This document shows positions 483 to 29,054 of a stretch of 64,000 bases of DNA, piece by piece (the first letter of the stretch is position 1; every line of letters starts with the position of its first letter). This stretch comes from Minisyncoccota bacterium (GTDB lineage Bacteria > Patescibacteriota > Minisyncoccia > Phycocordibacterales > Phycocordibacteraceae). The stretch lies in contig DASZTF010000044.1 of assembly GCA_035548315.1 (NCBI GenBank), forward strand, positions 31,484-95,483, read 5' to 3'. The notes under the pieces are model-generated. The model made no database searches. It was not told the origin of the DNA and worked only from the letters and a program-made list of their open reading frames with translations. The translations under genes were made by a program, and so were the position numbers.

Positions 483-1637
483 CTAGCGGATGGTGGCGGC
501 GAATTCGCTCACCGTGCGTTCCTCGAGCTGCTTGTGGAGCGCGTTCACCTCGTCATTGGTGAGTGTGCGCTCGAGCGAGCGGTAGGTGATGCGGTAGGCG
601 TAGCTCACGTTGCCCTCACCGAGCTTCGCTGCATTTTCATACTTGTCGAGGAGTGTCACATCTTCTGCCATATCGCCGAGCACGTCGCGCACGAGGTCGA
701 AGTAGTTGTTTGGGATGAAGTCGTTCTTCACGATGAATGAGATATCGCGTACCACGGGCGGATACTTGCTGACTTCTTTGTATTCTTGGCCGAGCACGAG
801 CTGCTTCTTGATGCGCTGGTCATCGCTCCAGAGGAGGCGGATGTCCGGGAGCGCCATCGAGATGATCGCGAGGCGCTCGATACCGAATCCGAATGCCCAT
901 CCGTGATATCCTTCCAAACCCAATTTAGAAAGCGTGGACTTTTTCGGCATACCGCTCCCGAGGATCTCGAGCCACTCGCCCTTTGCCGGGCCTTCTGCGG
1001 CCGTGCCCTTCACATTTACCTCCACCTCAAACGACGGGTCGGTGTACGGGAAAGTGTCGGCGTTTACACGGAACTGCGTAGCCGGGCCGAACACCGAGTG
1101 CACAATATCGCCGAACACTTTCTTCAAGTCGTCCTCCGTAATCTCGACCGAATCAGGCGCGATATACCACGCACCCATCTGGTGGAAGATGTTCATATGG
1201 CGACTGTCTATTTCGTCCTTGCGGTAGACCTTGCCGTAGCAGAGCGCACCCATCGACTTTCCGCGTGCGATGCGTTCCTTGATCTCGGGCTGGCTCAGGT
1301 AGTAGTACCAGAACACCGTGTCGTGGGTGCGCAGCGCGTTTTCCTCGTCCACGAAGTAGGTGTCCGACGTACTGCGTGCTGGGTGGTCGGGTGGGAAGTC
1401 GAAGAGGTCGAAGAGGATAGACGAGGGGACGATTTCCGGGATCTCGATGTCGTCGAATCCGACGAATGACGGGGCAGCTTTGACCCGCTGGACTATTTCA
1501 TACAGCGGCGAGCCCGGGGTGCGGGAGAGGTCCGGCATAGCGAGGTACCGCTTCATGCGGGCAGCATCAAAGTCCGTGCGGGCTTCAAGCTCCTTCCGGA
1601 GACGCATTTCGTCGGTCCTATCGATTTTGATGTCCAT
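483..1637 (-). CDS. pheS: Phenylalanine--tRNA ligase, monomeric type (PheS-like class II catalytic core fused to C-terminal FDX-ACB anticodon-binding domain)
   Basis: Class II motif 3 GWAFGFGIERLAII. The ~110 aa C-terminal tail SKYPPVVRDISFIVKND...ERTLTNDEVNALHKQLEE matches the FDX-ACB fold of PheT C-termini and mitochondrial PheRS. Start moved to MDIKI (ATG at 1637) to avoid overlap with the downstream + gene. No pheT in window. Confidence 0.8.
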   Translation of the reverse strand: MDIKIDRTDEMRLRKELEARTDFDAARMKRYLAMPDLSRTPGSPLYEIVQRVKAAPSFVGFDDIEIPEIVPSSILFDLFDFPPDHPARSTSDTYFVDEENALRTHDTVFWYYYLSQPEIKERIARGKSMGALCYGKVYRKDEIDSRHMNIFHQMGAWYIAPDSVEITEDDLKKVFGDIVHSVFGPATQFRVNADTFPYTDPSFEVEVNVKGTAAEGPAKGEWLEILGSGMPKKSTLSKLGLEGYHGWAFGFGIERLAIISMALPDIRLLWSDDQRIKKQLVLGQEYKEVSKYPPVVRDISFIVKNDFIPNNYFDLVRDVLGDMAEDVTLLDKYENAAKLGEGNVSYAYRITYRSLERTLTNDEVNALHKQLEERTVSEFAATIR

Positions 1638-1667: not shown

Positions 1668-2330
1668 GTGGCTATGGAGAAGCATGTCTATTTCGTCCGA
1701 CACGGGGAGAGCAATAGCAACAAGGACGGTCTTTTGCGTGGCTCCGAATCCGGACTAACGGACGAAGGGAAGAAGCAAGCAGAAATCGTTGCCGCACGGG
1801 TCGGCCGTATTGGTGTGGATGCACTCATATCCAGTAAGTACGCTCGTACCTTAGATACAGCAGAAGCTATCGCGCGGGTAACGCGGCTTCAGGTCCAGAA
1901 GAGCGACCTTCTCGTCGAGTGGAGGCAGCCGAGCGCAATTATGGGCAAGCATAAGGATGACCCAATGGTCCGACAGATACACGCCGAAATACATGCTGGT
2001 CGCATGACTCCTGGGTACCGACATTCTGACGAAGAGTCCTTCAGCGACATGAAGGCTCGTGCCGTGGGTACACTTGAGCTGCTGCGCAATCATCCGAAAG
2101 ATCGTCTGTGCGTCGTTACGCACGGAATCTTCCTGCGTGTGCTTCTCGGCACTACGCTTCTTGGTGACCGATTTTCGGAACCTGACTTTCGCAACTTTAT
2201 GACACACCTACTTACTAGCAACACGGGGATCACATACGCTCGCTATCGTGATGATATTGGTTTCCGCGGGTATCCGACTGAATCAGGCTGGGAATTTATA
2301 TCCTGGAACGATGCAGCGCATCTTGGATGA
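1668..2330 (+). CDS. Histidine phosphatase family protein (phosphoglycerate mutase-like)
   Basis: N-terminal VYFVRHGESNSN catalytic RHG motif, and a C-terminal VVTHG region. Confidence 0.75.
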   Translation: MAMEKHVYFVRHGESNSNKDGLLRGSESGLTDEGKKQAEIVAARVGRIGVDALISSKYARTLDTAEAIARVTRLQVQKSDLLVEWRQPSAIMGKHKDDPMVRQIHAEIHAGRMTPGYRHSDEESFSDMKARAVGTLELLRNHPKDRLCVVTHGIFLRVLLGTTLLGDRFSEPDFRNFMTHLLTSNTGITYARYRDDIGFRGYPTESGWEFISWNDAAHLG

Positions 2331-2331
2331 T

Positions 2332-2679
2332 ATGGATTACGTCACGCTCGAGCAGTTCAAGATAAGCGGCATACACGGGCACCATGCGCACGAGCGCGTG
2401 GTGGAGCAGGAGTTCCTGGTCTCGGTAAAAGTGGGATGCGATATCGTGGCAGCGGGGAAGTCAGACAAACTTCCCGACACAATTGATTTTGATTTTCTTC
2501 GATCTTCTATTGAAGAAGTGTTTAAGAATAGAAGCTATTACCTAGTAGAAGCGCTAGCAGAAGACATTGCTACTGCCATATTCACAGACGCCCGCGCAAA
2601 AGAAATTACTGTTGCTATTAAAAAGTTGGCCGTCTGGCCCGACGCGGTCCCGGGCGTGGTCATCACGCGCACAAGATAA
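2332..2679 (+). CDS. folB: Dihydroneopterin aldolase
   Basis: MDYVTLEQFKISGIHGHHAHERVVEQEFLVSVKV resembles the FolB N-terminus. Start taken at the internal ATG that abuts the upstream stop. Size ~115 aa. Confidence 0.7.
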   Translation: MDYVTLEQFKISGIHGHHAHERVVEQEFLVSVKVGCDIVAAGKSDKLPDTIDFDFLRSSIEEVFKNRSYYLVEALAEDIATAIFTDARAKEITVAIKKLAVWPDAVPGVVITRTR

Positions 2680-2735: not shown

Positions 2736-2952
2736 TGCCCAAACCGGCATCCTTGGATGAGCCTGGCATCCTGGGGCTGTGCGGCTAGTTATCGGTGCGC
2801 TGCACCGTATCGGTCATCTCAATAGTCCCTCCCAAAAATCGTTCCATCTCCATGTCGAGACGGGGTATACAATTATATAGCATATACCTATAATATTGTC
2901 AATGCCTGGAAGCCAAGTTGTAGGGAAATGCACCCAGCGGGAGGCCCTCATT

Positions 2953-2963
2953 TGTGATAGAAT
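2953..2963 (+). promoter_or_regulatory. Extended -10 promoter element (TGaTAGAAT) upstream of gyrB
   Basis: tgtgaTAGAATataggtaagaaaccATG; there is also a perfect TATAAT at ~2893. Confidence 0.4.
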
Positions 2964-2977
2964 ATAGGTAAGAAACC

Positions 2978-5065
2978 ATGGCAAAAGGAGCTGAAAAAGA
3001 GCCTAAAAAGAAGGCTTCTAAAGACTACGATGCATCGAGCATTACCGTGCTCGAGGGCCTCGAGCCGGTCCGCAAGCGACCGGGCATGTACATCGGTACT
3101 ACGGGTCCCGATGGTCTCCACCACCTGATCTGGGAAATCTTTGATAACTCGCGCGACGAAGCGATGGGTGGTCACGCAGACGACATTGAAGTCGCGCTCC
3201 TGCCGGGCGGCTATGTGCGCGTCGCGGACAACGGCCGCGGTATCCCAGTCGGCATTCACCCCAAGACCAAGGTGAGCGCACTCGAGACCATCATGACCAC
3301 GCTCCACGCCGGCGGTAAGTTCGGCGGGGAAGATTCGGGCTACAAAGTCTCCGGTGGTCTCCACGGCGTGGGTGCCTCGGTAGTGAACGCACTTTCCACG
3401 CATGCGAAAGCAGTCGTCTACAAAGACGGCGGCATCCACAAGCAGGAATATAAAATTGGTAAGCCGATGGGCAAGGTGAAGCAGGTTGGGAAGTCGAAGC
3501 TCCACGGCTCGATCATCACGTTCCGTCCCGACGACACTATCTTTACCGATGGCGTGAAGTGGAACTGGGACAAGATCATCTCGCACCTGCGCCAGCAAGC
3601 GTACCTCGTGAAGGGTGTGCGCATTACGGTGATCGATGCACGCGAGAATACGCTCGCCGCAAATGAGGAGGATGTGTTCTACCTCCGCGAGCTCGCGCTT
3701 GAGGTGCCGTCGATGACGTTCTACTTCGAGGGTGGGCTCAAATCGCTTGTCGCATTCAACAACAAGCACCAGGAAGCGGTGCACAAGAATATTTTCTATG
3801 TCGACAAGGAAGCGGACGGTGTGATGGTGGAAGTCGCGCTCCAGTATGTGGACGACATCACGCCGCGCATTCTCGCGTTCGCGAACAATACGTACAACAG
3901 CGAGGGCGGTACGCACATCACCGGATTCAAGACGGCGCTCACGCGCTCGCTCAACACGTATGGCCGCAATGCCAACATCCTGAAAGAAAAAGATGAGAAC
4001 TTCACGGGAGACGACGTGCTTGAGGGCATCACGGCGGTGGTGTCGGTAAAACTCCCAGAGATTCAGTTTGAAGGTCAGACCAAAGCAAAGCTTGGTTCTG
4101 TGGAGGCACAGGGCGCGACTGCAACGGTGTTCGGCGAAGCATTCGCCGCATTCCTCGAAGAGAACCCGGATGATGCAAAGGCTATTGTGAACAAAGTGCT
4201 CCTCGCGCTCAAGGCGCGCAAGGCAGCAAAGGCCGCAAAGGATTCCGTGCTCCGTAAGGGTGCCCTCGAGGGCATGACGCTCCCGGGCAAGCTCGCGGAC
4301 TGCCAGGTGAAGGCGCCAAGCGAAGCAGAACTCTTCATCGTGGAGGGAGACTCCGCAGGTGGCACGGCCAAGACCGGCCGCGATCGCCGCACGCAGGCGA
4401 TCCTCCCGCTGCGCGGTAAGATCCTCAATATCGAGCGCGCGCGTCTCGACCGCATGCTTGCATCGGAGCAGATTCGTAACCTCGTGGTCGCACTCGGCAC
4501 CGCGATCGGCGACGTGTTCGACCTCGAGAAGCTTCGCTATCACAAGATCATCATCGCGACCGACGCCGACGTGGACGGCGCACACATCCGCACGCTCCTC
4601 CTCACGCTCTTCTATCGCCACTTCCGCCCGATCCTCGATGGCGGATACATCTACATCGCGCAACCGCCGCTCTTCAAGATCATGAAGGGCAAGGATATCC
4701 GCTACGCGTACTCGGACGCTGAGCGCGATAAGGAGCTCAAGGACATGGGCGTCGCGGTGAATGAGGTCGCGATTGCAGAAGGAGGCGACGATCAGAGTGG
4801 CGAAGAAGGCGAGGCAGAAGCAGAGGAGACCACCGTTAAAAAAGCATCCAAAGTCCGCGTGCAGCGCTACAAAGGTCTCGGAGAAATGAACGCGTCGGAA
4901 CTTTGGGAGACCACGATGGACCCAGCGCGTCGCGTGCTGAAGCAGGTCACTATTGAAGACGCGCAGGACGCCGACCGCATGTTCGATGTGCTCATGGGGA
5001 ACGACGTCGCGAGCCGTAAGTCGTTCATCCAATCGAACGCGAAGCTCGCGAATCTTGATATTTAA
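2978..5065 (+). CDS. gyrB: DNA gyrase subunit B
   Basis: GHKL ATPase N-terminus (GLHHLIWEIFDNSRDEAMGG, GLHGVGASVVNALS), TOPRIM (LFIVEGDSAGG) and C-terminal tail typical of GyrB. 695 aa. Confidence 0.95.
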   Translation: MAKGAEKEPKKKASKDYDASSITVLEGLEPVRKRPGMYIGTTGPDGLHHLIWEIFDNSRDEAMGGHADDIEVALLPGGYVRVADNGRGIPVGIHPKTKVSALETIMTTLHAGGKFGGEDSGYKVSGGLHGVGASVVNALSTHAKAVVYKDGGIHKQEYKIGKPMGKVKQVGKSKLHGSIITFRPDDTIFTDGVKWNWDKIISHLRQQAYLVKGVRITVIDARENTLAANEEDVFYLRELALEVPSMTFYFEGGLKSLVAFNNKHQEAVHKNIFYVDKEADGVMVEVALQYVDDITPRILAFANNTYNSEGGTHITGFKTALTRSLNTYGRNANILKEKDENFTGDDVLEGITAVVSVKLPEIQFEGQTKAKLGSVEAQGATATVFGEAFAAFLEENPDDAKAIVNKVLLALKARKAAKAAKDSVLRKGALEGMTLPGKLADCQVKAPSEAELFIVEGDSAGGTAKTGRDRRTQAILPLRGKILNIERARLDRMLASEQIRNLVVALGTAIGDVFDLEKLRYHKIIIATDADVDGAHIRTLLLTLFYRHFRPILDGGYIYIAQPPLFKIMKGKDIRYAYSDAERDKELKDMGVAVNEVAIAEGGDDQSGEEGEAEAEETTVKKASKVRVQRYKGLGEMNASELWETTMDPARRVLKQVTIEDAQDADRMFDVLMGNDVASRKSFIQSNAKLANLDI

Positions 5066-5067
5066 AT

Positions 5068-5153
5068 AAAACAAAACACCGCATTCACTCGGGACAGTAC
5101 GTCTTGGCCGAGCGGCCGTGAGCGCTGGCTCGAGGGGATGCGGTGTTTTGTTT
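5068..5153. terminator. Long-range inverted repeat (16-nt arms AAACAAAACACCGCAT / ATGCGGTGTTTTGTTT) between convergent gyrB and the downstream minus-strand gene; probable bidirectional terminator
   Basis: Perfect 16-bp complementary arms, A-run 5' and T-run 3', GC-rich ~54-nt interior that can fold further. Confidence 0.5.
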
Positions 5154-5937
5154 AGCGGCGAACGTCGAAGCTCTTGGTGTCGGTGTTGTCGTTCTCGTTC
5201 GACTCGTTCACGTCGTGGTTAGCATCCACCGTGACCTTGAGGTCTTGGTTGTTGCCCACGTCGAGCTTACCGCGTGTGAAGTCGAGTGTAAGCGGGAGGG
5301 TGGCACCCGCTGCAAGCGACGGCTCGTCCTGGTCAAAGTCAAACGAGCGGTCGTTCTGCGTCGGGAAGACGACGCGGATGTTCCAGCTGCCAGTGGCATT
5401 CGTGCCGTTATTGGTCACAAGGATTTTTGCCACGAGCTCGTCGTCGGAGTTCATGGAATCATCGGAGACGAAGCGGCCGCTGCGATCGAGGTAGCCGATG
5501 TCGGTAATCTTTACGGTGAGATTCGCGAGTCCGTAATTGGAGACGGGGATCTGTACCGGGGTCGAGCCCGGCACGTAGTACGGGTACGCGATGGTCTGGT
5601 AGTACGTCTGCTGATACTGCGCGCTACCAGCGTTTGCGGTCTGCGTCGTTACGGGCGCTGCAGGCTCAGCGGGCGGGACCGTGTAGGAAGTCGTCGTCGC
5701 CGTGGTGGTAGCAGTGACGGTCTGCGTCGTGTCGAACGAAAGAGAGGTCGACGGCACGGTGGTGAGGGAGTTGTCGGTCGGGGTGCTGTTCGTAAAGGCA
5801 AGCGGAATGTAGCGCGCTGCCCAGATGGCGAGCACGATACCGATAAGAATGAGGGCGATGAACCCGACAACGGCAAGCGTGCCCACCGCGGTGCTGCGGC
5901 CGTGGGTCTTTTCCGTCGTAATCGTGGTTTGCTGCAT
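5152..5937 (-). CDS. Membrane-anchored surface protein with Thr-rich linker and CARDB-like beta-sandwich domain
   Basis: N-terminal TM (AVGTLAVVGFIALILIGIVLAIW), a T/A/P-rich low-complexity segment, and a C-terminal WNIRVVFPTQND...DVNESNENDN motif resembling CARDB. Start taken at MQQTT. Confidence 0.55.
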   Translation of the reverse strand: MQQTTITTEKTHGRSTAVGTLAVVGFIALILIGIVLAIWAARYIPLAFTNSTPTDNSLTTVPSTSLSFDTTQTVTATTTATTTSYTVPPAEPAAPVTTQTANAGSAQYQQTYYQTIAYPYYVPGSTPVQIPVSNYGLANLTVKITDIGYLDRSGRFVSDDSMNSDDELVAKILVTNNGTNATGSWNIRVVFPTQNDRSFDFDQDEPSLAAGATLPLTLDFTRGKLDVGNNQDLKVTVDANHDVNESNENDNTDTKSFDVRR

Positions 5938-6048
5938 ATAGAGGGTATTTACCACACGCTGTATTATTTGTCAAATTGGCCGCTTTGTGCCCGAATGTGG
6001 GGCCTATTGACAAAGTCAGTTTAGTAGTGTATTTATATCTAAGATTAT

Positions 6049-6723
6049 ATGAGCGCAGTAAATGCAGCCGTACGACTCGTACGTGCCGCCCAGCATGCCT
6101 GGGCGGCCCGTTTCCAGTTCCTCGTGACGTTCACGGGGGTGCTGTTCGTGACGCTCTCGGTGCTCATCTGGCTCGATTGGGTACCAGACGCTCCGGCTGC
6201 AACCACGCCCGTACCGACGACCCTCTCTGAGCTCCAGTCGCCGGACGCGGTGCAGGCCTTTGTATCACTCTCGGGCGAAGATCCGGTGAAGATCACCGCG
6301 CCGGCAATCGGGCTCTCGGCCACGATCAGCAACCCCACGACGACCAATGTCGAGGCACTCGACCAGTACCTGCTTACGGGCGCGGTGCGATACCCGACGT
6401 CGGCGCTGCTTGGGCAGAATGGGAACATGATCCTGTTTGGCCACTCGAGCTACCTGCCTATAGTGCACAACCAGGCGTACAAGACGTTCGATGGCATCCA
6501 GAATTTGAAGCAGGGTGATCTCATCACGGTCTCTTCATCCGGTCGCGCTTATACCTACAGTGTGGACACCGTGGCGCAGGAGAATGTATCGACTGGGGCC
6601 ATCCCGCTCACGAACGACGGCAAGCAGCACCTGACGCTCGCGACGTGTGACTCGTTCGGCACGAAGTCAGACCGGTTCGTCGTCATGGCGACCCTTGTAG
6701 AAAGCCACGCGCTCTCGAACTAA
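6049..6723 (+). CDS. Sortase family transpeptidase
   Basis: N-terminal TM anchor, catalytic His in NMILFGHSSY, the TLATC active-site cysteine motif, and a downstream Arg. Confidence 0.8.
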   Translation: MSAVNAAVRLVRAAQHAWAARFQFLVTFTGVLFVTLSVLIWLDWVPDAPAATTPVPTTLSELQSPDAVQAFVSLSGEDPVKITAPAIGLSATISNPTTTNVEALDQYLLTGAVRYPTSALLGQNGNMILFGHSSYLPIVHNQAYKTFDGIQNLKQGDLITVSSSGRAYTYSVDTVAQENVSTGAIPLTNDGKQHLTLATCDSFGTKSDRFVVMATLVESHALSN

Positions 6724-6832: not shown

Positions 6833-8098
6833 ATGTCTGAAGACAATCATGGGCCTCCGTCACAAGAGGCACACGAACAAGTGATCAATGAGCGTAACGA
6901 TGCTCGCACAAAACTCGAGCAGACGAAACGCGAGCTCAACGATAGCCGCCAGAAAACTCGCGACGAGGAGATCGCGCATAACGCCACCAGAACGGAGCGC
7001 GATGCGCAAAAGACTCGCGCAGCAAACTGGCGCGTCGTCGCGTTCATCGCCGCGATCGCCGCGTTGCTGTTCGCCATCGGCCTCGCGCTGTGCATGTTCC
7101 GTTCGTGCCAGTATTCGACGCCCGTTGCGGCGCCGGAGACCATCACGTTCCCGAACAGCTCATCCGATCCATCGGCGGACGCCGGCAAGCAGTGCATCAA
7201 GCAGCAACTGAAGCTGCTCGGCTCAGCGCGTGTCGACGCAGTGAAGGAAGCGAGGGATTTGTACGGCGGCACTTCCGCCGGGCGCGAATTCGTCGACTAC
7301 GTCACCAAGAACCCGGATGGCGACCCCAAGAAGGGGATGCTCAAGGGTCTCGCGACCCTCGGACAGCGCATCGCATGGAACTTCACCGCCAGCAACGGCG
7401 AAGGGTTCCATCTCGACGACAAGCGGAAGGTCTGCATCTGCCACGATTGGCATCATGCGCACACCAAACCGCCGGCGCCTCCGGTCACACACACCATCTG
7501 GCAGCACACCGAGATTCAAAACCTCGGCAACGGCTGCGCCACGATCGACATCACCAACCTGTTCTTCGCCGGTGAGTACGTCCGAGTGCCGGACGGGCAG
7601 GGTGGTGTGGAAACCGCGCAGGTGAAGCACGGCGAGTTGCACTTCGGCTACGACACTGCCGATGGACCGCTCCCGCCTCATTTGTGCGGCACGATCCAGC
7701 AGGGTCACGGCTCGATCGAGAACTGGTATAACAGCCTGTGCTCGGCGAACTGCAAACCGCTCGCTGACTACATCTTCAACATGCTGGATGCCATGCCGGA
7801 GGAACCGCGCCGTATTTTCACCGTCGAAATTGTTGACGGTCATATACGGCTCACGGCGCCGATGGCGATCATCCGCAAAGTGATGTACTTCTGCTACTCG
7901 TTCACGTTGACCGATGGCAGACGCTTCGAGACGCGGTTCTTCTACCTGACTCCTCCGGGCAGACGCCCAGGCGAGTCAGGCGCAGGGAACTTCGTCTCCT
8001 GGGGCCGGTCCATGCACGTGACGCTCAACGCAGCGCGCTGGCCTATGGACTGGCGTCACGACGCGCCGGATGACGATCACTACCTTCACGTCCAGTAA
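6833..8098 (+). CDS. Hypothetical single-pass membrane protein: N-terminal charged coiled-coil, TM helix, Cys-rich (12 Cys) ectodomain
   Basis: Residues ~10-65 are K/E/R/Q-rich heptad-like. The TM helix is AFIAAIAALLFAIGLALCMF. The remainder contains CICHDWHH, LCGTIQ, CSANC and similar. No family recognised. Confidence 0.5.
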   Translation: MSEDNHGPPSQEAHEQVINERNDARTKLEQTKRELNDSRQKTRDEEIAHNATRTERDAQKTRAANWRVVAFIAAIAALLFAIGLALCMFRSCQYSTPVAAPETITFPNSSSDPSADAGKQCIKQQLKLLGSARVDAVKEARDLYGGTSAGREFVDYVTKNPDGDPKKGMLKGLATLGQRIAWNFTASNGEGFHLDDKRKVCICHDWHHAHTKPPAPPVTHTIWQHTEIQNLGNGCATIDITNLFFAGEYVRVPDGQGGVETAQVKHGELHFGYDTADGPLPPHLCGTIQQGHGSIENWYNSLCSANCKPLADYIFNMLDAMPEEPRRIFTVEIVDGHIRLTAPMAIIRKVMYFCYSFTLTDGRRFETRFFYLTPPGRRPGESGAGNFVSWGRSMHVTLNAARWPMDWRHDAPDDDHYLHVQ

Positions 8099-8152: not shown

Positions 8153-8225
8153 TTGTACGCTGTGCCTTAGAGGCATGGCAGGGGCATTTATTTAACCAGT
8201 GCGTTACCAGCATTACTCAACATCT

Positions 8226-10316
8226 ATGGATTTCACTAAAATCAGTGCCGTCATGGCCGCACAGAAACGCTCGATCGCGATCGGCGCTTTTGTCATTGTG
8301 TCGGTTGTGGGCATCGGGTTCGGCATCGGCCTTGCGACCGGTGTCGTGAACGTCCCGTCAGCACACGCGTGCTGCGGTATGCCACCCCCGCCCCCTCCTC
8401 CGCCACCCCCGCCCCCTCCTCCGCCACCCCCGCCCCCGCCCCCTCCTCCGCCCCCGCCGCCGGAGAAGCCGAGCTGTACACTTTCGGCTAATCCGTCGAG
8501 CCTCACGGGTGAGGGCGATTCAAAGCTTTCCTGGACCACTAAGAATGCGACGTCCGCTTCCATCAATCAGGGCATCGGTTCGGTGAGTCTCAATGGCAGC
8601 AAGAGCGTCCATGTGACGCAGACCATCACCTACACGCTTACCGCAAAGAGCAAGGACGGCACGAGCGTTAGCTGCCACACGACTGTCACGGTGAAGACCA
8701 AGCAGAATGCACCGACCTGTACGCTCACGGCGAGCCCGACCAAGATCAATCAGGGCGGCAAATCGACGCTTTCCTGGACGACCGACAATGCGACGTCGTT
8801 CTCGATCAACCAGGGCATCGGCAATGTAAAGCCGGTATCGGGTGGTTCGCTGAGTGTCTCTCCGATCCAGACGATTACCTACACTGGTACGGCTAAGGGC
8901 GACGGCGGCACCGTCACCTGCTCGACGACTATTACGGTCGTGACGAAGCAGAACGGCCCGACCTGTACGCTCTCGGCGTCTCCGCAGAACATCAAGCCGG
9001 GCAAGAGCTCCACGCTCACCTGGACGACCGATAACGCGACCTCCGTGTCAATCGATCACGGCATCGGCGACGTGAAGCTTTCCGGCAGCAAGGACGTCTC
9101 GCCGAACAAGGACACCACCTACACCCTCACGGCGCAGGGCAAGGGAGGTACGGTAACGTGTCAGACGACGATCACCGTGTCGGAGAATCCGGGCCCGGAG
9201 TGCACGCTCGACATCAGCCCAGACAACATCGACAAGGGCGATAACGCTACCATCAAGTGGACGACCGATAACGCTGAGTCGTTCAAGATCGACCACGGTA
9301 TCGGGAATGTGAAGCCGGTCGACAAGGGTTCGGAGAAAATCTCGCCGAACGACGACACCACCTACACGGGCACCGCGACGTCGAAGGACGGCCGCACCGC
9401 GACGTGTAAGGCATCGATCGACGTGGGTACTAACCACGGCGGTGGCGGTGGCCACAATAATAATGACGTCACCCTCACCGGCGCACCGACCCAGTCCCAG
9501 TCGTACGTGTATCTCTCGCAGATCCCGTACACCGGTCTTGACCTTGGTCCGGTGGGTACGGTCGTGTACTGGCTCGCGCTCGTGCTCTGGAGCCTCGGCC
9601 TCTCGTACCTCTTCCTCTTCAAATTCCTTCCGTTCGTGAAGGGTGGGGCGGTGGCGTTCGGTCACCAGGTGGGTGTCGCTCTCAACAGCGATGTACACAC
9701 TACGGCAAACGACCTCGTTCACGCGCACTACTCGCAGAATGTTGAGGACGTGCATATGCCGAATACGGAACCGATTGCTGAATCTACACTCGCGATGCCG
9801 AGCCGCGGCTACTCGACCTACGACGGCTTCCGCTCGTTCGCGACGGGTGGCGCGCTCTCGGTGGATGACATCGTGAAGGGCCTCTCGCGCCAGCCGGCTG
9901 CACCCGAACCGGTGCACGAAGCTCCGGCACCGATCGCGCCCGCACCGATGACTTTCGCTGACGAAGCACCGGCCATCCACCGCGAGGCTGACACGAACGT
10001 TCGCGGATTTATCGCCGCGGTCCTCGATGGCGATCGCAACGCGGTCTTCGGTATGCTCCGCACGATTGCGAAGGGCGGCGGAAGCTCGCAGGCGTTCCTC
10101 ACGGACGCAGTCTCCGCGCTCGATGACGCGTATCGCGCTCGCATCGACGGCACGCCCGTCGATCCGGAAGTGGCACGCATCCTTGCCGCGACGATGACGC
10201 CGACGCTCGAGCGCCTCATCGGCGCGCTCGCGACGGCAGTCGACTCGAGCTACTCGCAGGACTCGACCGCAGCGAAGCTCGCGCTCACCCGCGCGTTCGC
10301 CGTGATCGGGAAGTAA
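8226..10316 (+). CDS. Two-TM surface protein: signal-anchor, ~27-residue polyproline linker, five tandem Ig-like repeats, Gly-rich segment, second TM, ~220-aa cytoplasmic tail
   Basis: ATG at 8226 preferred over the track's GTG at 8199. The repeats follow the pattern CTL(T/S)ASP..I..G..STLSWTTDNATS.SI(N/D)(Q/H)GIG.VK...S.SP...TTYT.TA.G.GGTVTC.TTITV, five times. The internal IPYTG motif is followed by a hydrophobic helix and KF..K. Confidence 0.7.
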   Translation: MDFTKISAVMAAQKRSIAIGAFVIVSVVGIGFGIGLATGVVNVPSAHACCGMPPPPPPPPPPPPPPPPPPPPPPPPPPPEKPSCTLSANPSSLTGEGDSKLSWTTKNATSASINQGIGSVSLNGSKSVHVTQTITYTLTAKSKDGTSVSCHTTVTVKTKQNAPTCTLTASPTKINQGGKSTLSWTTDNATSFSINQGIGNVKPVSGGSLSVSPIQTITYTGTAKGDGGTVTCSTTITVVTKQNGPTCTLSASPQNIKPGKSSTLTWTTDNATSVSIDHGIGDVKLSGSKDVSPNKDTTYTLTAQGKGGTVTCQTTITVSENPGPECTLDISPDNIDKGDNATIKWTTDNAESFKIDHGIGNVKPVDKGSEKISPNDDTTYTGTATSKDGRTATCKASIDVGTNHGGGGGHNNNDVTLTGAPTQSQSYVYLSQIPYTGLDLGPVGTVVYWLALVLWSLGLSYLFLFKFLPFVKGGAVAFGHQVGVALNSDVHTTANDLVHAHYSQNVEDVHMPNTEPIAESTLAMPSRGYSTYDGFRSFATGGALSVDDIVKGLSRQPAAPEPVHEAPAPIAPAPMTFADEAPAIHREADTNVRGFIAAVLDGDRNAVFGMLRTIAKGGGSSQAFLTDAVSALDDAYRARIDGTPVDPEVARILAATMTPTLERLIGALATAVDSSYSQDSTAAKLALTRAFAVIGK
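8382..8462 (+). repeat. Imperfect 21-nt tandem repeat (CCACCCCCGCCCCCTCCTCCG-like) encoding a ~27-residue Pro run
   Basis: Direct reading of the sequence: two full 21-nt units plus a longer degenerate third. Confidence 0.85.
8472..9430 (+). repeat. Five tandem ~240-bp intragenic repeats (Ig-like domains)
   Basis: Repeated protein pattern with recurring codon blocks such as tggacgaccgataacgcgac. Confidence 0.8.
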
Positions 10317-10327
10317 CTCCACACAAG

Positions 10328-10364
10328 AAAACCGCCGCCTCCTTCGAGGCGGCGGGTTTCTTTT
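10328..10364. terminator. Bidirectional intrinsic terminator between convergent genes
   Basis: aaaccgccgcct-ccttcg-aggcggcgggttt flanked by an A-run and cttttg. Confidence 0.7.
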
Positions 10365-10367
10365 GCC

Positions 10368-12122
10368 TTAGATATTTGCGCGTTCTTTGATGCGCGCGAG
10401 GGTCGCATCGATAAATTCTTGGAGTGGCACCGTGGCCTTGTCGCCGTTGCGATTATTTTCTACCGTCATGGTGCCGGCACCTGCTTCTGCATCACCGAGC
10501 ACGATGAAGCACGGAACCTTCGCCGTCTTCACTGCGCGGATGCGCTTGCCGAGCGAGTCATCGGCATGCAGCTCTGCGCGGATGCCGGCTTCTTTGAGTT
10601 TGCTCATGACTTCGTTCGCATAGTCTGCGTGCTTCTCAGAGACAGGGAGCACCGCTGCCTGCACTGGCGCGAGCCAGAGCGGGAACACGCCCGCCGTGTG
10701 CTCGATGTAAACCGAGAGGAAACGCTCGAGCGAACCGGCGATCGCGAGGTGGATCATCACTGGCGTCTTCGGCGATCCATCGGTGTCGATGTATTCAAGT
10801 GCAAAGCGTGCCGGCTGCACGAAGTCGAGCTGGCCCGTAGCGAGCTGGTGTTCGCGGCCGATCGCATCCGTGGCCATGAAGTCGATCTTAGGTCCGTAGA
10901 AAGCTGCTTCCCCCCGCGCGATGAAGTAGTCGAACCCGCCGTTCTTCGCGATGGCTTCGAGCTGCGCTTCGGCGCTATCCCAGAGTGCGGATTCACCAAG
11001 GTACTTTTCGGGCGTAGCCGGATCACGGAAGGAAAGTCGTGCACGGAACTTCATGCCCATCGTGGCATAAAACTCCATCACCATCTGCATGATCGAACCA
11101 TATTCCTGCTCGATCTGGTCGGGGCGGCAGAACACATGGCTGTCGTCCTGCGTGATCGAGCGCACACGCGAGAGGCCCGCGAGCTCGCCCTTTTTCTCAT
11201 CGCGGTATACCGTCGTGGTCTCGAGGTAGCGGAGCGGGAGGTCGCGGTAGCTGCGGCCGCGCGACGCATAGATCTGCGTGTGGTGCGGGCAGTTCATCGG
11301 CTTCAGTACGAACTTGTCGCTCGTCTCCTGGCTCTTCACGAGGAAGAGTTCGTTGCCGAACTTGGCCCAGTGGCCAGACTTCTCGTAGAGCTCCTGCTTC
11401 GTGATGTGCGGGATCCATACGCGGTCGAACCCACGCTTGGTGCGCAGTTCTTGCGAGTACCGATGAATCTCTTCGCGCAGCACCGTGCCCTTGGGAGTGA
11501 AGAGTGGGAGGCCTGAACCGACAAGCTCGGAGAACGTAAATAGGTCGAGCTCCACCCCGAGTTTGCGGTGGTCACGCTTCTTCGCTTCCTCGAGCTGGAC
11601 CTTGTAGGCGTCGAGGTCGGCCTTGGTATCAAACGCCAGCCCATAAATACGCGTGAGCTGGGGCTTGTTCTCATCGCCGCGCCAGTAGGCGCCCGCGATG
11701 CGGTCGAGGAGGAATGCGTCGGCCTCAATGTCGTGCGCCGGGTGCTCGCTGTGACCACCGCGGCACAGGTCGGTAAAGCCCCCTGCGGTGTAGAGCGTGA
11801 TTTTCTCGCCCCTCTCTGTGATCTCGTCGATGAGTTCGAGCTTGAACGGGTTGTCCTTGAACCGGTCCTTTGCGTCGGCCTCGGACACTTCCACACCGGT
11901 CATGCTGGTCCAGGAGGGCAGGAGGTCGCGCATGTCCGCGGTGAGCTTCTCGAGTTCTTCTTCGCCAGGTTTTTCACCGGCTGAGAAATCAAAGTCGTAA
12001 TAAAAGCCATTGTCGACAGCAGGGCCGATGGTGGCCTTGGCGTGCGGGTAGCGCTCCGCCACGGCTGCAGCCAAGAGATGCGCGAGGGTGTGGCGCTTTT
12101 CAGGAAGTGAGGCCATGTACAT
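10368..12122 (-). CDS. thrS: Threonine--tRNA ligase lacking N-terminal TGS domain
   Basis: The N2 editing-domain region HTLAHLLAAAVAERYPHAKATIGPAVDNGFYYDFDF, class II catalytic core and anticodon-binding domain are all present. Begins at the editing domain. First ATG used; the track start is GTG at 12146. Confidence 0.85.
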   Translation of the reverse strand: MYMASLPEKRHTLAHLLAAAVAERYPHAKATIGPAVDNGFYYDFDFSAGEKPGEEELEKLTADMRDLLPSWTSMTGVEVSEADAKDRFKDNPFKLELIDEITERGEKITLYTAGGFTDLCRGGHSEHPAHDIEADAFLLDRIAGAYWRGDENKPQLTRIYGLAFDTKADLDAYKVQLEEAKKRDHRKLGVELDLFTFSELVGSGLPLFTPKGTVLREEIHRYSQELRTKRGFDRVWIPHITKQELYEKSGHWAKFGNELFLVKSQETSDKFVLKPMNCPHHTQIYASRGRSYRDLPLRYLETTTVYRDEKKGELAGLSRVRSITQDDSHVFCRPDQIEQEYGSIMQMVMEFYATMGMKFRARLSFRDPATPEKYLGESALWDSAEAQLEAIAKNGGFDYFIARGEAAFYGPKIDFMATDAIGREHQLATGQLDFVQPARFALEYIDTDGSPKTPVMIHLAIAGSLERFLSVYIEHTAGVFPLWLAPVQAAVLPVSEKHADYANEVMSKLKEAGIRAELHADDSLGKRIRAVKTAKVPCFIVLGDAEAGAGTMTVENNRNGDKATVPLQEFIDATLARIKERANI

Positions 12123-12151
12123 TCGAGAATACCACGATTTCCTCACGCGAC

Positions 12152-15100
12152 TTAGAGCGTTTTCAGGTTATCGATCGCGAGCGAGATCTCGCCGTTGCGG
12201 TCGGAGATGGTCGCTTTAAGCAGGAGGCAAGTGCCCGGAACGACTTTCGCGCCGACCTCTTTATAGAGTTTGGGGAAGACGACGCCCTCGATCGAGTCGG
12301 TCTTGTCTTCGAATTTCACGAACGCCATTTTCTCGCCCGACTTGGTGAGGATAGTGCGCACGTCAGAGACGAGCACGGGGATGATCACCGGCCGGCCTTT
12401 GTGCGGGTCGGCGTTGATTGCGCTTATCGTGAGCTTGGCGCGCGCGAGGGTATCTTCGTGTGCGTCGAGGGGGTGCCCTGATACGTAAATGCCGAGCAGT
12501 TCTTTTTCCGCGCGCAGTTTCTCACCGATCGGGAGTTCGGGCGCGGGGATAAGGGTGAGGGTGGGCGCCGCGAGCGCACCAAAGAGCGAGTCCTGCGGGG
12601 ATTCCTTGGCGGCATCGCGATGGAATTCGAGCATGCGGTCGATATTTTCCATGAGTGTGCCGCGTTCCGCGAAGGAATCGAGCGCTCCTGCCTTGATAAG
12701 CGATTCGAGCGATTTCTTATTCAAATTTTTTGATCCCACACGGATGAGAAAGTCAGAAATAGTTGCGAACGGTCCGTGCGCGGTACGCTCCGCAAGTATT
12801 GCTTCCGCGATGCCCTCGCCAAAGTTCTTGATCGAGGAGAGGCCGAATCGAATCGTGTCTTTCTTTTCTCCCACAATGGTGAACACCGCTCCGCTCTCGT
12901 TCACGTCGGGCGGCAGCACGGGTATGTGGAGGCGCTCTGCCTCAGCAATAAGGACCGCGATCGATTCAGTGTCGCCCGCGTCCGCCGTAAGGAGCGCCGT
13001 CATGTATTCCACCGGGTGGTTGGCCTTCATGTATGCGGTCTGGTACGCGACCTTCCCGTAGCTTGCGGCGTGCGCTTTGTTGAACCCGTACGCAGCGAAC
13101 GGTTCGATAAGCGCCCAGATCGCTTTCCCTTTTTCAGGCGGGAGCTTGCCGTACTCTACAAATCCTTTGAGCAACTTTTCTTTTTGTGCCTCCATTTCCG
13201 CAGGGATTTTCTTACCCATGGCCTTGCGGAGCGTGTCGGCTTCGAGCCAGGAATAGCCGCCGAGCGTAATGGCGGTGAGGAGCACGTCGTCCTGGTACAC
13301 GAGGAGTCCGTAGGACGCACCCAAGTATTCCTTCATGCGCGGATCCATGTACGTCACCAGTCCGGGATTACGCTTGCGCTCGATGTACTGCGGGATCGTT
13401 TCCATTGGGCCCGGGCGGTAGAGCGCCACCATGGCGTTGATATCGTGGATGGTGGTCGGTTTGAGCTCCTTCAAGTAGCGCGTCATGCCGGAGCCGTTCA
13501 GCTGGAACGTGCCTTCCGTCTCGCCCCGCGCGAGCATGGCAAACGTCTTCGCGTCGTCGAGCGGGATGTTCTCAATATCGATCACGATGCCGCGGGTTTC
13601 CTTCACGCGCTCCATGGCGTCGGCGAGGATGGAGAGGTTCTTGATCCCGAGGAAGTCGTACTTGAGGAGCCCCGCGTCTTCTACGGCGTGCATGTCGTAC
13701 TGCGTGATGAGCTTGCCCGTTTTCGGATCGGTCTGGAGTGGCGTCCATTCGGTAAGGGGAGTCGGTGATATCACCACGCCCGCGGCATGCACGCCGGTAT
13801 GGCGCGCAGAGCCCTCGATGCGCATCGCGAGGTCGAGTATTTCTTTCACGTCTTCGTCTTCGGTATAGAGCTGCTTGAGTTCGGGCTCTTCTTTAAACGC
13901 GCGTTCGATGGTCATCGGGAATCCTTGCTGGCCGATGGGGATGAGCTTAGCGATGCGGTCGCCCGTGCCGTAGCTGTGCCCGAGCGCGCGCGCCACATCG
14001 CGTACTGCTGCGCGCGCCATCATGGTGCCGAAGGTGCCGATCTGCGCGACGTGGTCTTCGCCATAACGCTGCTTGGCGTACGCGATCATTTCGTCGCGGC
14101 GAGTATCGGCGTAGTCCATATCGATATCGGGTGCTTTCGGACGCTCGGGGTTGAGGAATCGTTCGAAGGGGAGTTGGTATTCGAGCGGATCGACGTTCGT
14201 GATGCCGGTCACATAGGAGACGAGCGATCCGGCGGCCGATCCGCGCGTGGTCGTGAGAATACCCGCCTGCTTGGCGAACGTGAGCAGGTCGGACACCACG
14301 AGGAAGTACGGCGCGAACCCTTTTTCGATGATCACGCCGAGCTCGTACTCGAGTCGCTTAACGACCGCCGGATTTTCCTTGGAGAGTCCGCGTGCCGTGA
14401 GACCTTTGTAGGCTTTCTCGCGCAACATATCGGCGTGCGTTTTACCTGGCTCCTCGGGAAAATTGGGGAACACCCAGCTCCCGAGCGTGAGCGAGACATT
14501 ACAGCGCTCCGCAATTTCTCCCGAACGGTCGACTGCGTCTTCCATGCCCTTAAATCGTTTACGCATCTCCTTTTCGGTAACGAAGGAAAAGTCCTCCTCC
14601 TCATTGCGGTCTGCCTGCCCGTGCTGGATGCGCCGCATCACTGATGTCGCTTCGCGATCGTCGGGGTCGAGGTAGTACACGTCCTGCTGTGCGACCAGCG
14701 GCACGCCGCTTCGCTTCGAAAGCTCCATCACCTTGCGCATTTTTTCTTCGTGGCCCGCGGCTTTGGGGTGATGGGTGATTTCAAGAAACAGATTATCCTT
14801 CCCGAAAATGCTCGACCACTCGGCGAGCGCGGCGCCCGCCGCCTCGTCCTGCCCGCTCGCGAGGAGGCGGGGCACATCACCCGCAAACGACGGCATGAGC
14901 GCGATGAGACCATGCGCGTGTTCTCGGATAAGGTCCATGTCCATGAGCGGTCGGTCGAAGAATCCTTCCGTGAACGATCTCGTCACGAGCGCCATGAGGT
15001 TCTTGTAGCCGGTATTATTTTCTGCGAGCAGCACGAGACGCGTGCGCTTTTCAGCGGTAGCCTGGTCCCGATCGAACCGCGAGCGCGGCGCAATGTACGC

Positions 15101-24767: not shown

Positions 24768-24807
24768 TTACCTCACTCTAGCAGACGTTTCCTCATTTGG
24801 GGCCTAT

Positions 24808-24836
24808 TTGACCGCCTAGTACCTATTTGCTATAGT
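24808..24836 (+). promoter_or_regulatory. Promoter TTGACC-17-TATAGT ending 8 nt before the rpsP start codon (leaderless/near-leaderless)
   Basis: Direct reading of the rnr-rpsP divergent spacer. Confidence 0.5.
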
Positions 24837-24850
24837 CCCGAGACATGTTG

Positions 24851-29032: not shown

Positions 29033-29054
29033 GAAGCGCTACGCGGATGGTAGT

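What the first reader, a model, noticed from the sequence alone, without database searches (positions are those of the whole stretch)
483..1637. Apparently monomeric (mitochondrial-type) phenylalanyl-tRNA synthetase
Bacterial PheRS is normally an (alpha-beta)2 enzyme encoded by adjacent pheS-pheT. Here the PheS-like catalytic core (motif 3 GWAFGFGIERLAI) is followed in the same polypeptide by a ~110-aa domain (SKYPPVVRDISFIV...ERTLTNDEVNALHKQLEE). That domain matches the FDX-ACB anticodon-binding fold normally found at the C-terminus of PheT and in monomeric mitochondrial PheRS. No pheT is adjacent; the next gene is a histidine phosphatase. This suggests a single-chain PheRS lacking the beta-subunit editing domain.
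Basis: partly seen in the sequence, partly recalled or inferred. Interest (0 to 1): 0.55.

Follow-up and report, generated by a model that had tools for sequence, protein, structure and literature searches.

The report
Single-chain mitochondrial-type PheRS in a Paceibacteria genome
This ultra-small (CPR/Paceibacteria) bacterium carries a one-piece phenylalanine-tRNA ligase built like the mitochondrial enzyme instead of the two-subunit bacterial one; the same gene is conserved across its whole class, with a rearranged amino-acid pocket and no proofreading domain.

Summary
Window 483-1637 (-) encodes a 384-aa protein. It has a class IIc PheRS catalytic core (Pfam tRNA-synt_2d, E 1.8e-48) fused to a C-terminal FDX-ACB anticodon-binding domain (E 2.5e-21). 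An AlphaFold model (pLDDT 91) superposes over its whole length on human mitochondrial PheRS (TM 0.78). No B3_4/B5 (pheT) gene was found in the window or in 1.25 Mb of flanks from 80 related genomes.

The gene is a single-copy, gyrB-linked core gene of class Paceibacteria. At least 327 GTDB species representatives carry it, and it is almost as conserved as GyrB. It forms its own clade, below the NCBIfam cut-offs of pheS_mito, SrmL and pheS.

All catalytic, Phe-ring and candidate anticodon-reading residues are invariant. The carboxylate that holds the water anchoring the Phe amino group has moved from the Glu159 position to the Thr120 position (human numbering). This pairing is strictly exclusive in 317 of 317 sequences. 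The two residues that H-bond m-Tyr in the human enzyme are Trp and Gly here.

The best reading is the housekeeping, editing-free monomeric PheRS of this lineage. Genome-wide absence of pheT could not be tested. I found no paper describing it. Interest is moderate.

The parts
483..1637 (-). Complete CDS of the single-chain PheRS (384 aa; ATG at 1637, stop 483-485). The in-frame GTG at 1703 is an upstream ORF extension that relatives do not share.
1458..1637 (-). N-terminal ~60-aa helical extension (aa 1-60). It is partly conserved (R20, D22, R27, Y31, D36-L37, R39, P44). No Phe_tRNA-synt_N coiled-coil domain was detected.
801..1511 (-). Class IIc catalytic module (Pfam tRNA-synt_2d; aa 43-279).
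1308..1334 (-). LRTHDTVFW (aa 102-110), the amino-group-binding helix start. H105 and T107 match human H119 and S121. D106 replaces T120 and W110 replaces Q124.
1167..1235 (-). Motif 2 and the following strand, GKVYRKDEIDSRHMNIFHQMGAW (aa 135-157). R139 and Q153 are invariant. G155 stands where all other PheRS have Glu or Asp.
1032..1052 (-). FPYTDPS (aa 196-202), the aromatic pair that sandwiches the Phe ring. It corresponds to human F232/F234/T235, with F234 replaced by Y198.
864..902 (-). Motif 3, GWAFGFGIERLAI (aa 246-258). It holds A248 (equivalent to E. coli A294 and T. thermophilus A314), E254 and R255.
486..770 (-). FDX-ACB anticodon-binding domain (aa 290-384). Invariant residues are R297-D298, D331-x-Y333, S345 and the C-terminal R384.
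2978..5065 (+). gyrB, the conserved syntenic partner of the PheRS gene in Paceibacteria. This is context, not part of the enzyme.

Best explanation
The gene encodes the housekeeping phenylalanyl-tRNA synthetase of a Paceibacteria (Parcubacteria/CPR) bacterium, probably Kaiserbacteria-like. It takes the single-chain form so far characterised only for mitochondria.

One polypeptide carries three parts: a ~60-aa helical N-terminus, the class IIc catalytic module that makes Phe-AMP and transfers Phe to tRNA-Phe, and a C-terminal FDX-ACB (B8-type) domain that reads the GAA anticodon. By analogy with human mt PheRS, the resting enzyme is closed, as the model predicts. The anticodon-binding domain would have to swing out on a hinge to bind tRNA.

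The chain has no B3/B4 editing module, so Tyr- or m-Tyr-tRNA-Phe cannot be cleared in cis.

The amino-acid pocket keeps the Phe-specific aromatic pair and Ala248 but is rewired on its polar wall. In the human enzyme, Thr120, Gln157 and Glu159 hold the water that anchors the Phe alpha-amino group. Here the carboxylate has moved from the Glu159 position (Gly155) to the Thr120 position (Asp106). Gln124, which with Glu159 H-bonds the OH of m-Tyr in the human enzyme, is Trp110.

Shown: domain architecture, fold, conservation, synteny, residue states and their covariation. Inferred: monomeric state, Phe/tRNA-Phe activity, that it is the only PheRS of the cell, and any effect of the pocket changes on Tyr/m-Tyr discrimination.
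For: Architecture: Pfam tRNA-synt_2d plus FDX-ACB in one chain.

Closest solved relative: human mt PheRS at E 4e-53, with both domains aligned.

Fold: AF2 model with pLDDT 91.1 and pTM 0.89. Foldseek top hits are 3cmq, 5mgv and 8p8x with TMq 0.78-0.79 over about 395 columns. The tRNA-bound open form 3tup gives 0.59 and PheS alpha chains about 0.52.

Core-gene behaviour:
- Thousands of two-domain, ~384-aa homologues exist in Parcubacteria MAGs.
- 327 GTDB species representatives were confirmed by tblastn. The best 80 are full length at 62-79% identity, across Kaiser-, Zambryski-, Nomura-, Taylor-, Colwell- and Vogelbacteria.
- A second large group (Wolfe-, Staskawicz-, Nealson-, Portnoybacteria) carries the same two-domain protein.
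- There is one full-length copy per locus, and no second pheS or any pheT in 1.25 Mb.
- Linkage to gyrB is conserved.
- Identity to the window protein averages 67.9%, against 72.6% for GyrB in the same 58 genomes, with r = 0.75.

Catalytic competence: R103, H105, T107, R139, D141, Q153, F196, Y198, T199, A248, E254 and R255 are invariant or nearly so in 198 sequences.

Anticodon domain: D331-x-Y333, S345 and R384 are invariant and align with the same residues of E. coli PheT and eukaryotic FARS2.

Compensatory swap: D106+G155 occurs in 197 of 198 core-group sequences, and the single exception is N106+D155. The wider group has T/M/A106+D155 in 119 of 119. PMC5521548 states that Thr120 OG, Gln157 NE2 and Glu159 OE1 hold the same water (X9) that anchors the alpha-NH3+.

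m-Tyr contacts: PMC3275996 states that the m-Tyr OH bonds Gln124 and Glu159, and that hmPheRS lacks editing and stably makes Tyr-tRNA-Phe.
Against: Absence of pheS/pheT from the rest of the genome was not tested. Only 64 kb of this genome and +/-10 kb of related ones could be read.

The protein is below the curated cut-offs of every NCBIfam PheRS model: pheS_mito 211 of 258, pheS 148 of 237. Its nominal best hit, by about 1 bit, is 'PheS-related mystery ligase SrmL' at 212 of 300. NCBI therefore often labels these proteins 'hypothetical'.

Three substrate-wall positions differ from every characterised PheRS (D106, W110, G155), so altered specificity is not excluded.

No tRNA-Phe gene was examined. 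No biochemical data exist.
Confidence: 0.78

Rival explanations
1. It is an accessory PheRS paralogue, a 'mystery ligase' of the SrmL kind. It would act alongside a canonical PheS/PheT encoded elsewhere and do something other than bulk Phe-tRNA-Phe synthesis.
For: The top NCBIfam hit by about 1 bit is NF051887 SrmL (212.4 bits). The substrate wall is altered at D106, W110 and G155. A related protein sits in a non-housekeeping context in a MAG labelled Oligoflexia. Genome-wide absence of pheST was not shown.
Against: The SrmL score is far below its cut-off of 300.

The gene is single-copy, present across the whole class, gyrB-linked and nearly as conserved as GyrB. That is unlikely for an accessory gene in genomes of roughly 0.7-0.8 Mb (721-kb complete genome; 785-kb contig).

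All Phe-ring and anticodon-reading residues are invariant. The polar-wall changes are compensatory rather than degenerative. No second pheS or pheT turned up in 1.25 Mb of flanks.
Confidence: 0.1
2. It is a true aaRS with shifted specificity. Because of the W110/G155/D106/Y198 pocket, it would charge tRNA-Phe or another tRNA with a different aromatic or modified amino acid.
For: Four pocket positions differ from characterised PheRS. Two of them are the residues that contact the ring substituent of m-Tyr in the human enzyme.
Against: The Phe-defining features are kept: the aromatic pair F196/Y198, T199, the Gly-lined floor and A248. The carboxylate swap preserves the amino-group water site. If this is the only PheRS, the proteome still needs Phe-tRNA-Phe. 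Losing the two H-bond partners argues for less, not more, acceptance of hydroxylated analogues.
Confidence: 0.05
3. It is a recent acquisition of a eukaryotic mitochondrial FARS2 gene by this bacterium, or contamination by eukaryotic DNA.
For: The best PDB relative is human FARS2.
Against: The gene is embedded among bacterial housekeeping genes: gyrB, dnaE, rpoB/C, dnaG and rpoD.

Its divergence tracks GyrB divergence (r = 0.75), which indicates vertical inheritance within the class.

The core clade has 98/100 NJ bootstrap support and nests inside the eukaryote-containing clade in only 16 of 100 replicates.

It scores below the pheS_mito cut-off, while eukaryotic members score 335-434 bits.
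Confidence: 0.03

Closest known systems
Mitochondrial phenylalanyl-tRNA synthetase (FARS2 / yeast MSF1; NCBIfam TIGR00469 pheS_mito; PDB 3CMQ, 3TUP)
   Same: Same two-module chain: the PheS-type catalytic module plus a B8/FDX-ACB anticodon domain, with no B1-B7 domains and no editing site. The fold and closed-state domain packing are the same (TMq 0.78). The post-motif-3 linker is the same (PDIRLxW..D.R...Q). The catalytic Arg/Gln/aromatic pair/Ala are the same, as are the Asp-x-Tyr/Phe, Ser and C-terminal Arg of the anticodon domain.
   Different: The host is a bacterial cytoplasm, not an organelle. The protein forms a separate clade (98/100 bootstrap) and scores 211 bits against the family cut-off of 258. 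HMMER splits its match to FARS2 into two stretches that skip a ~37-residue stretch of the human chain with almost no counterpart here. The pocket differs at human T120 (D106), Q124 (W110), E159 (G155) and F234 (Y198).
Bacterial heterotetrameric (alpha-beta)2 PheRS (pheS TIGR00468 + pheT TIGR00472)
   Same: The catalytic module is homologous to PheS (about 31-37% identity to E. coli PheS in related loci). The C-terminal domain is homologous to the last domain of PheT.
   Different: It has one chain instead of two. It lacks the N-terminal PheS coiled-coil domain and the B1-B7 domains, including the B3/B4 editing site. No adjacent pheT is present. Scores are below both family cut-offs: 148 of 237 for pheS and 65 of 403 for pheT.
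NCBIfam NF051887 'PheS-related mystery ligase SrmL'
   Same: The model aligns across both modules (profile positions 36-343 of 349), so SrmL appears to share the PheS core plus C-terminal domain layout.
   Different: The score is 212 bits against a cut-off of 300. No paper on SrmL was found. What SrmL does, and where it occurs, could not be established here.

Membership tests
Monomeric mitochondrial-type PheRS (FARS2 / TIGR00469) | Class IIc PheRS catalytic core (tRNA-synt_2d) with motifs 1-3 | tested here: met
   Pfam PF01409 at E 1.8e-48. Motif 2 R139 and motif 3 E254-R255 are invariant.
Monomeric mitochondrial-type PheRS (FARS2 / TIGR00469) | FDX-ACB (B8) anticodon-binding domain fused C-terminally in the same polypeptide | tested here: met
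   Pfam PF03147 at E 2.5e-21, 76.4 bits against a cut-off of 31.1, covering profile positions 1-94 of 94. It aligns to the FARS2 C-terminal domain.
Monomeric mitochondrial-type PheRS (FARS2 / TIGR00469) | No beta-subunit modules (B1, B2, B3/B4 editing, B5, B6/7) in the chain | tested here: met
   Only two Pfam families hit the protein. At 384 aa there is no room for further domains.
Monomeric mitochondrial-type PheRS (FARS2 / TIGR00469) | Whole-chain fold and domain arrangement of mt PheRS | tested here: met
   AF2 pLDDT 91.1. Foldseek 3cmq/5mgv/8p8x give TMq 0.78-0.79 with rmsd 2.8-3.2 A.
Monomeric mitochondrial-type PheRS (FARS2 / TIGR00469) | Score at or above the curated cut-off of the equivalog model | tested here: not met
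   TIGR00469 gives 211.3 bits against a cut-off of 258.35. Eukaryotic members score 335-434 bits.
Monomeric mitochondrial-type PheRS (FARS2 / TIGR00469) | Active as a monomer; charges tRNA-Phe with Phe | not testable with these tools
   This needs SEC-MALS and aminoacylation assays.
Monomeric mitochondrial-type PheRS (FARS2 / TIGR00469) | Replaces the heterotetramer (no pheS/pheT in the same genetic compartment) | not testable with these tools
   None was found in the 64-kb window or in 1.25 Mb of flanks from 80 genomes. Whole genomes cannot be read here.
Bacterial PheS alpha subunit (TIGR00468) | Score at or above the cut-off; N-terminal coiled-coil domain; adjacent pheT | tested here: not met
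   147.9 bits against a cut-off of 237.45. Pfam finds no Phe_tRNA-synt_N domain. There is no pheT next to the gene in 81 of 81 loci.
SrmL, PheS-related mystery ligase (NF051887) | Score at or above the curated cut-off | tested here: not met
   212.4 bits against a cut-off of 300. Relatives P0125, P0127 and P0130 are also below it, at 219-253 bits.

The most novel reading that the evidence does not exclude
A whole bacterial class (Paceibacteria) translates with an editing-free, single-chain PheRS as its only PheRS. This bacterial clade would be an independent, older sister of the mitochondrial enzyme. The 'mitochondrial' architecture would then be a bacterial invention later inherited or acquired by eukaryotes, not a eukaryotic chimera. 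The W110/G155/D106 pocket would be an adaptation that removes the H-bond partners of hydroxylated Phe analogues, so that Tyr and m-Tyr are rejected at the synthetic site and editing becomes dispensable.
Probability: 0.2. Interest if true: 0.75.

Novelty: new variant of a known kind. Interest (0 to 1): 0.5.

Why it matters
Reviews state that the heterotetrameric form is conserved in all known prokaryotes and that mitochondrial PheRS is the only monomeric enzyme with a class II catalytic module (PMC3275996). A large bacterial class that relies on the single-chain form would change that picture.

It would matter in four ways:
- It offers a small bacterial model (384 aa) for the hinge-type tRNA-binding mechanism and for FARS2 disease variants.
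- It bears on where the mitochondrial enzyme came from.
- It raises the question of how bacteria cope without PheRS proofreading of Tyr and m-Tyr.
- It explains a practical problem: these genes fall below every NCBIfam PheRS cut-off and are often annotated 'hypothetical'. The lineage would also probably lack the pheT marker used in phylogenomic and completeness sets (from my own knowledge, not checked here).

The strictly exclusive Asp106/Gly155 versus Thr/Asp pairing is a clean natural example of a catalytic-site carboxylate moving between two ligands of the same water.

Tried and rejected
Structure from a single sequence: the AlphaFold run without an alignment gave an unusable model (pLDDT 36). 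I repeated it with a 62-sequence alignment.

They covered monomeric PheRS, PheRS or pheT with CPR/Patescibacteria/Parcubacteria, FARS2, and SrmL/'mystery ligase'. None found a paper describing a bacterial single-chain PheRS or SrmL. The papers opened from those searches and PMC7507113 were irrelevant on this point. The PNAS m-Tyr paper is not held.

Whole-genome test for pheT: this was not possible. The single genome-contig scan went to mapping the family, loci are limited to +/-10 kb, and exact look-up of the window protein found no record. I considered spending the last homologue search or the metagenome scan on PheT. I rejected that because any PheT query available (E. coli) would return only its own close relatives, and absence from a top-120 list proves nothing.

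SrmL: a homologue search seeded with the relative scoring highest against SrmL (P0125) returned more Parcubacteria proteins and none named SrmL.

RNA features: ARAGORN and Rfam found no tRNA-Phe or other RNA in the window.

Rejected readings:
- Eukaryotic contamination or recent HGT from eukaryotes, because of context, vertical signal and tree.
- A pheS pseudogene or fragment, because the reading frame is intact and the residues are invariant.
- The GTG at 1703 as the start codon, because the family N-terminus is MDIxIDR.
Full report
**1. What is in the sequence**

The minus strand carries an ORF at 483-1703 (406 aa from a GTG start). Homologues are almost uniformly 384 aa and begin MDIxIDR. 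The real start is therefore the ATG at 1637, and the stop is at 483-485.

Pfam finds two domains. tRNA-synt_2d covers residues 65-301 of the long ORF (E 1.8e-48). FDX-ACB covers 312-406 over the full 94-position profile (E 2.5e-21, 76 bits against a cut-off of 31).

Against PDB sequences, the best matches are the human mitochondrial PheRS entries (E about 5e-53), with the catalytic and C-terminal domains both aligned. Bacterial PheS alpha chains reach about 1e-28. PheT chains match only through their last domain, at about 1e-7.

A single-sequence AlphaFold run failed (pLDDT 36). With 62 homologues the model is confident (pLDDT 91.1, pTM 0.89). Foldseek places it on human mt PheRS in the closed state (3cmq, 5mgv, 8p8x) with TMq 0.78-0.79 and rmsd about 3 A over about 395 columns. 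The tRNA-bound open state 3tup gives TMq 0.59, and PheS alpha chains about 0.52. The observation and the domain assignment are confirmed.

**2. Surroundings**

The window is a chromosomal stretch of a small-genome bacterium, G+C about 0.58. Its genes include:
- gyrB at 2978-5065
- a class IIb aaRS at 10368-12146
- dnaE at 12152-15316
- smc, RNase R, rpoB, rpoC, dnaG and rpoD

The 5' neighbour of the PheRS gene is a divergent histidine phosphatase (1668-2330), followed by FolB. The 3' neighbour is a GT2 glycosyltransferase that is cut by the window start.

No scanned ORF of 500 aa or more has B3_4 or B5 domains. E. coli PheT finds nothing in the window by tblastn. There is no tRNA-Phe gene and no Rfam match in the window.

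**3. Distribution**

A word-indexed search of 5.8 billion proteins returned thousands of hits. The best 120 all have two domains and are about 384 aa, at 72-92% identity. Where a name is given, they come from Parcubacteria, Paceibacterota or Patescibacteria MAGs. JGI calls them 'phenylalanyl-tRNA synthetase alpha chain'. NCBI often calls them 'hypothetical protein'.

In the GTDB species-representative genomes, 327 loci encode a relative. The best 80 are full length at 62-79% identity. They span Kaiser-, Zambryski-, Nomura-, Colwell-, Taylor- and Vogelbacteria and include one complete 721-kb genome, CP174359.1.

A second search, seeded with a more distant member, showed the same two-domain protein in Wolfe-, Staskawicz-, Nealson- and Portnoybacteria. 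The gene is therefore a class-wide feature of Paceibacteria.

In 1.25 Mb of flanks from the 80 loci:
- E. coli PheS hits exactly one gene per locus, the monomeric one.
- E. coli PheT hits only the FDX-ACB tail of that same gene.

Synteny is strong. gyrB is next to the gene or within a few genes of it in most loci, and a GT2 gene plus a conserved unknown follow it in about half. In a Staskawiczbacteria 785-kb contig the gene sits 10 bp upstream of gyrB, followed by NUDIX, secE, nusG and rplK.

Across 58 genomes, identity to the window protein averages 67.9%, against 72.6% for GyrB, and the two correlate at r = 0.75. This is the behaviour of a vertically inherited, strongly constrained core gene.

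**4. Relationship to known families**

NCBIfam places the protein below every curated cut-off:

| Model | Score (bits) | Cut-off (bits) |
|---|---|---|
| SrmL 'PheS-related mystery ligase' | 212 | 300 |
| pheS_mito | 211 | 258 |
| pheS | 148 | 237 |
| pheT (tail only) | 65 | 403 |

An exhaustive HMMER scan of 1.84 billion 50%-identity representatives found only 163 clusters at E <= 1e-30.

In an NJ tree of 110 near-full-length members rooted on E. coli PheS, the window protein and its Paceibacteria relatives form a clade with 98/100 bootstrap support. A wider grouping with P0125, P0126, P0127 and P0130 is weak (50/100). The Paceibacteria clade falls inside the clade that holds identified eukaryotes (Salpingoeca, Vitrella) in only 16 of 100 replicates.

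Eukaryotic members, and an unnamed 340-370-aa metagenomic group, score above the pheS_mito cut-off at 260-434 bits. The Paceibacteria-like ones do not.

This is a simple distance tree with one outgroup. It supports 'separate clade' but does not settle direction of descent.

**5. Active site**

Numbering below is that of the 384-aa protein. In 198 core-group sequences the following are invariant or nearly so:
- R103, H105, T107
- Y138-R139-K-D141-E (motif 2)
- F151-H-Q153
- F196-P-Y198-T199
- G-W-A248-F-G-x-G-x-E254-R255 (motif 3)

The Phe-ring sandwich (human F232/F234) is F196/Y198. The Ala that limits para-substituents (E. coli A294) is A248.

Three polar-wall positions differ from every characterised PheRS in the alignments:
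- human T120 is D106
- human Q124 is W110
- human E159 (FHQxE) is G155

The pairing of positions 106 and 155 is strictly exclusive:
- D106+G155 in 197 of 198 core-group sequences.
- The one exception, L046, is N106+D155.
- 119 of 119 sequences of the wider Paceibacteria group have T/M/A106+D155.

W110 is present in all 119 wider-group sequences and is invariant in the 62-sequence core-group alignment.

PMC5521548 explains the coupling. In human mt PheRS the substrate alpha-NH3+ is anchored by Ser121 and by a conserved water. That water is held by Thr120 OG, Gln157 NE2 and Glu159 OE1. The carboxylate has therefore moved between two ligands of the same water. This argues for preserved amino-acid binding, not decay.

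PMC3275996 adds that the meta-OH of m-Tyr bonds Gln124 and Glu159 in the human enzyme. It also states that the human enzyme, lacking editing, stably forms Tyr-tRNA-Phe. Both of those partners are absent here (Trp, Gly). Whether this improves rejection of hydroxylated analogues is my inference and is untested.

**6. Anticodon domain**

R297-D298, D331-x-Y333, S345 and the C-terminal R384 are invariant in the family. They align with the same residues in E. coli PheT, human FARS2 and two protist FARS2 proteins.

From my own recollection of the T. thermophilus PheRS-tRNA-Phe complex, these correspond to Asp729, Tyr731, Ser742 and Arg780, which contact G34. I could not verify that numbering here.

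**7. Mechanism proposed**

The enzyme would act as a single chain that activates Phe and reads the GAA anticodon with its own C-terminal domain. By analogy with the human enzyme, the resting state is closed, and the model matches the closed rather than the open crystal form. tRNA binding would require a large hinge rotation of the anticodon-binding domain. There is no cis editing.

I put about 0.78 on 'functional housekeeping single-chain PheRS'. Within that, I put about 0.7 on it being the only PheRS of the cell.

**8. Rivals**

- An SrmL-like accessory ligase (0.10). This is disfavoured by the sub-threshold score, class-wide single-copy conservation, housekeeping synteny and intact specificity residues.
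- A shifted amino-acid specificity (0.05).
- Recent eukaryote-to-bacterium transfer or contamination (0.03). This is disfavoured by context, vertical signal and the tree.

**9. Novelty**

The kind of enzyme, a monomeric PheRS made of a PheS core plus a B8 domain, is known from mitochondria. A 2010 review describes the heterotetramer as conserved in all known prokaryotes and hmPheRS as the only monomeric class II catalytic module.

Ten full-text searches found no paper on a bacterial or CPR single-chain PheRS, or on SrmL. Subscription literature is not covered, and the architecture is visible in domain databases.

I rate it a new variant of a known kind: a distinct bacterial clade in a cytoplasmic setting with a rewired polar wall. 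Interest is moderate (0.5). The main gap is the untested genome-wide absence of pheT.

Noticed in passing
window 1-~450 (-): A GT2-type membrane glycosyltransferase is cut by the window start. It is the conserved co-directional downstream neighbour of the PheRS gene in about 40 of 80 related loci, usually followed by a conserved ~227-aa protein of unknown function.
   Followed up: partly
window 2948-5074 (-): A 708-aa ORF lies antisense to gyrB (2978-5065 +). Similar long shadow ORFs lie opposite rpoC (39450-41960) and RNase R (22899-24851). They are probably artefacts of the high G+C content, not genes.
   Followed up: partly
window 5117-5214 (+): ARAGORN reports a 98-nt 'tRNA-???' with a two-base anticodon. 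It overlaps the 3' end of a 267-aa minus-strand ORF (5152-5955), and Rfam finds nothing there. It is probably a false positive.
   Followed up: partly
window 25763-32090 (+): Two tandem giant proteins (1089 and 1011 aa) combine peptidoglycan-binding (PG_binding_1), Big_7 Ig-like and fn3/purple-acid-phosphatase-N domains. They are likely cell-surface proteins.
   Followed up: no
window 8199-10316 (+), 32163-33800 (+), 6833-8098 (+): Three large ORFs (705, 545 and 421 aa) have no Pfam match at E <= 1e-4.
   Followed up: no
window 1668-2679 (+): The histidine-phosphatase ORF (1668-2330) and the FolB dihydroneopterin-aldolase ORF (2248-2679) overlap by 83 nt as listed, so the FolB start is probably further downstream. 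The divergent intergenic space between the PheRS ATG (1637) and the phosphatase start is only about 30-36 bp. No obvious Shine-Dalgarno sequence precedes the PheRS start.
   Followed up: partly
L022 (JAKFXG010000012.1), near 5267-6415: A second, 89-aa inverted fragment of the PheRS gene lies beside the full copy. It could be an assembly artefact or a pseudogene remnant.
   Followed up: no
L084 (JAIBBV010000034.1, MAG labelled Oligoflexia), 10001-11245: A 414-aa two-domain PheRS-like protein (P0125) sits among non-housekeeping genes: M20 peptidase, GCS2, two MR_MLE racemases and a beta-lactamase. Its closest relatives are Parcubacteria proteins. It could be a horizontally acquired accessory copy or a mis-binned contig.
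   Followed up: partly
L004, L005, L007 and about 35 more loci: Many MAGs titled 'uncultured Candidatus Saccharibacteria' (TPA assemblies) carry this Paceibacteria-type gene and synteny at 63-76% identity. This suggests their taxonomic labels are wrong or generic.
   Followed up: no
P0187 (872 aa), P0250 (761 aa), P0204 (704 aa), P0223 (690 aa), P0203 (669 aa): These long proteins mostly carry the single-chain PheRS module at or near their C-terminus, behind several hundred extra residues. In P0250 the best-matching stretch lies near the N-terminus instead. Their origin and the nature of the extra residues are unknown.
   Followed up: no
P0139, P0143, P0149, P0156, P0170, P0171, P0206: A group of short (345-375 aa) two-domain proteins comes from metagenomic contigs of up to 494 kb. 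The four that were scanned (P0139, P0149, P0170, P0206) score above the pheS_mito cut-off. None carries an organism name. If they are prokaryotic, the 'mitochondrial' family proper also exists outside eukaryotes.
   Followed up: partly
P0001: The closest database relative (92% identity) is annotated as 546 aa, about 160 aa longer than the family norm. This is probably a mis-called start or a fusion.
   Followed up: no
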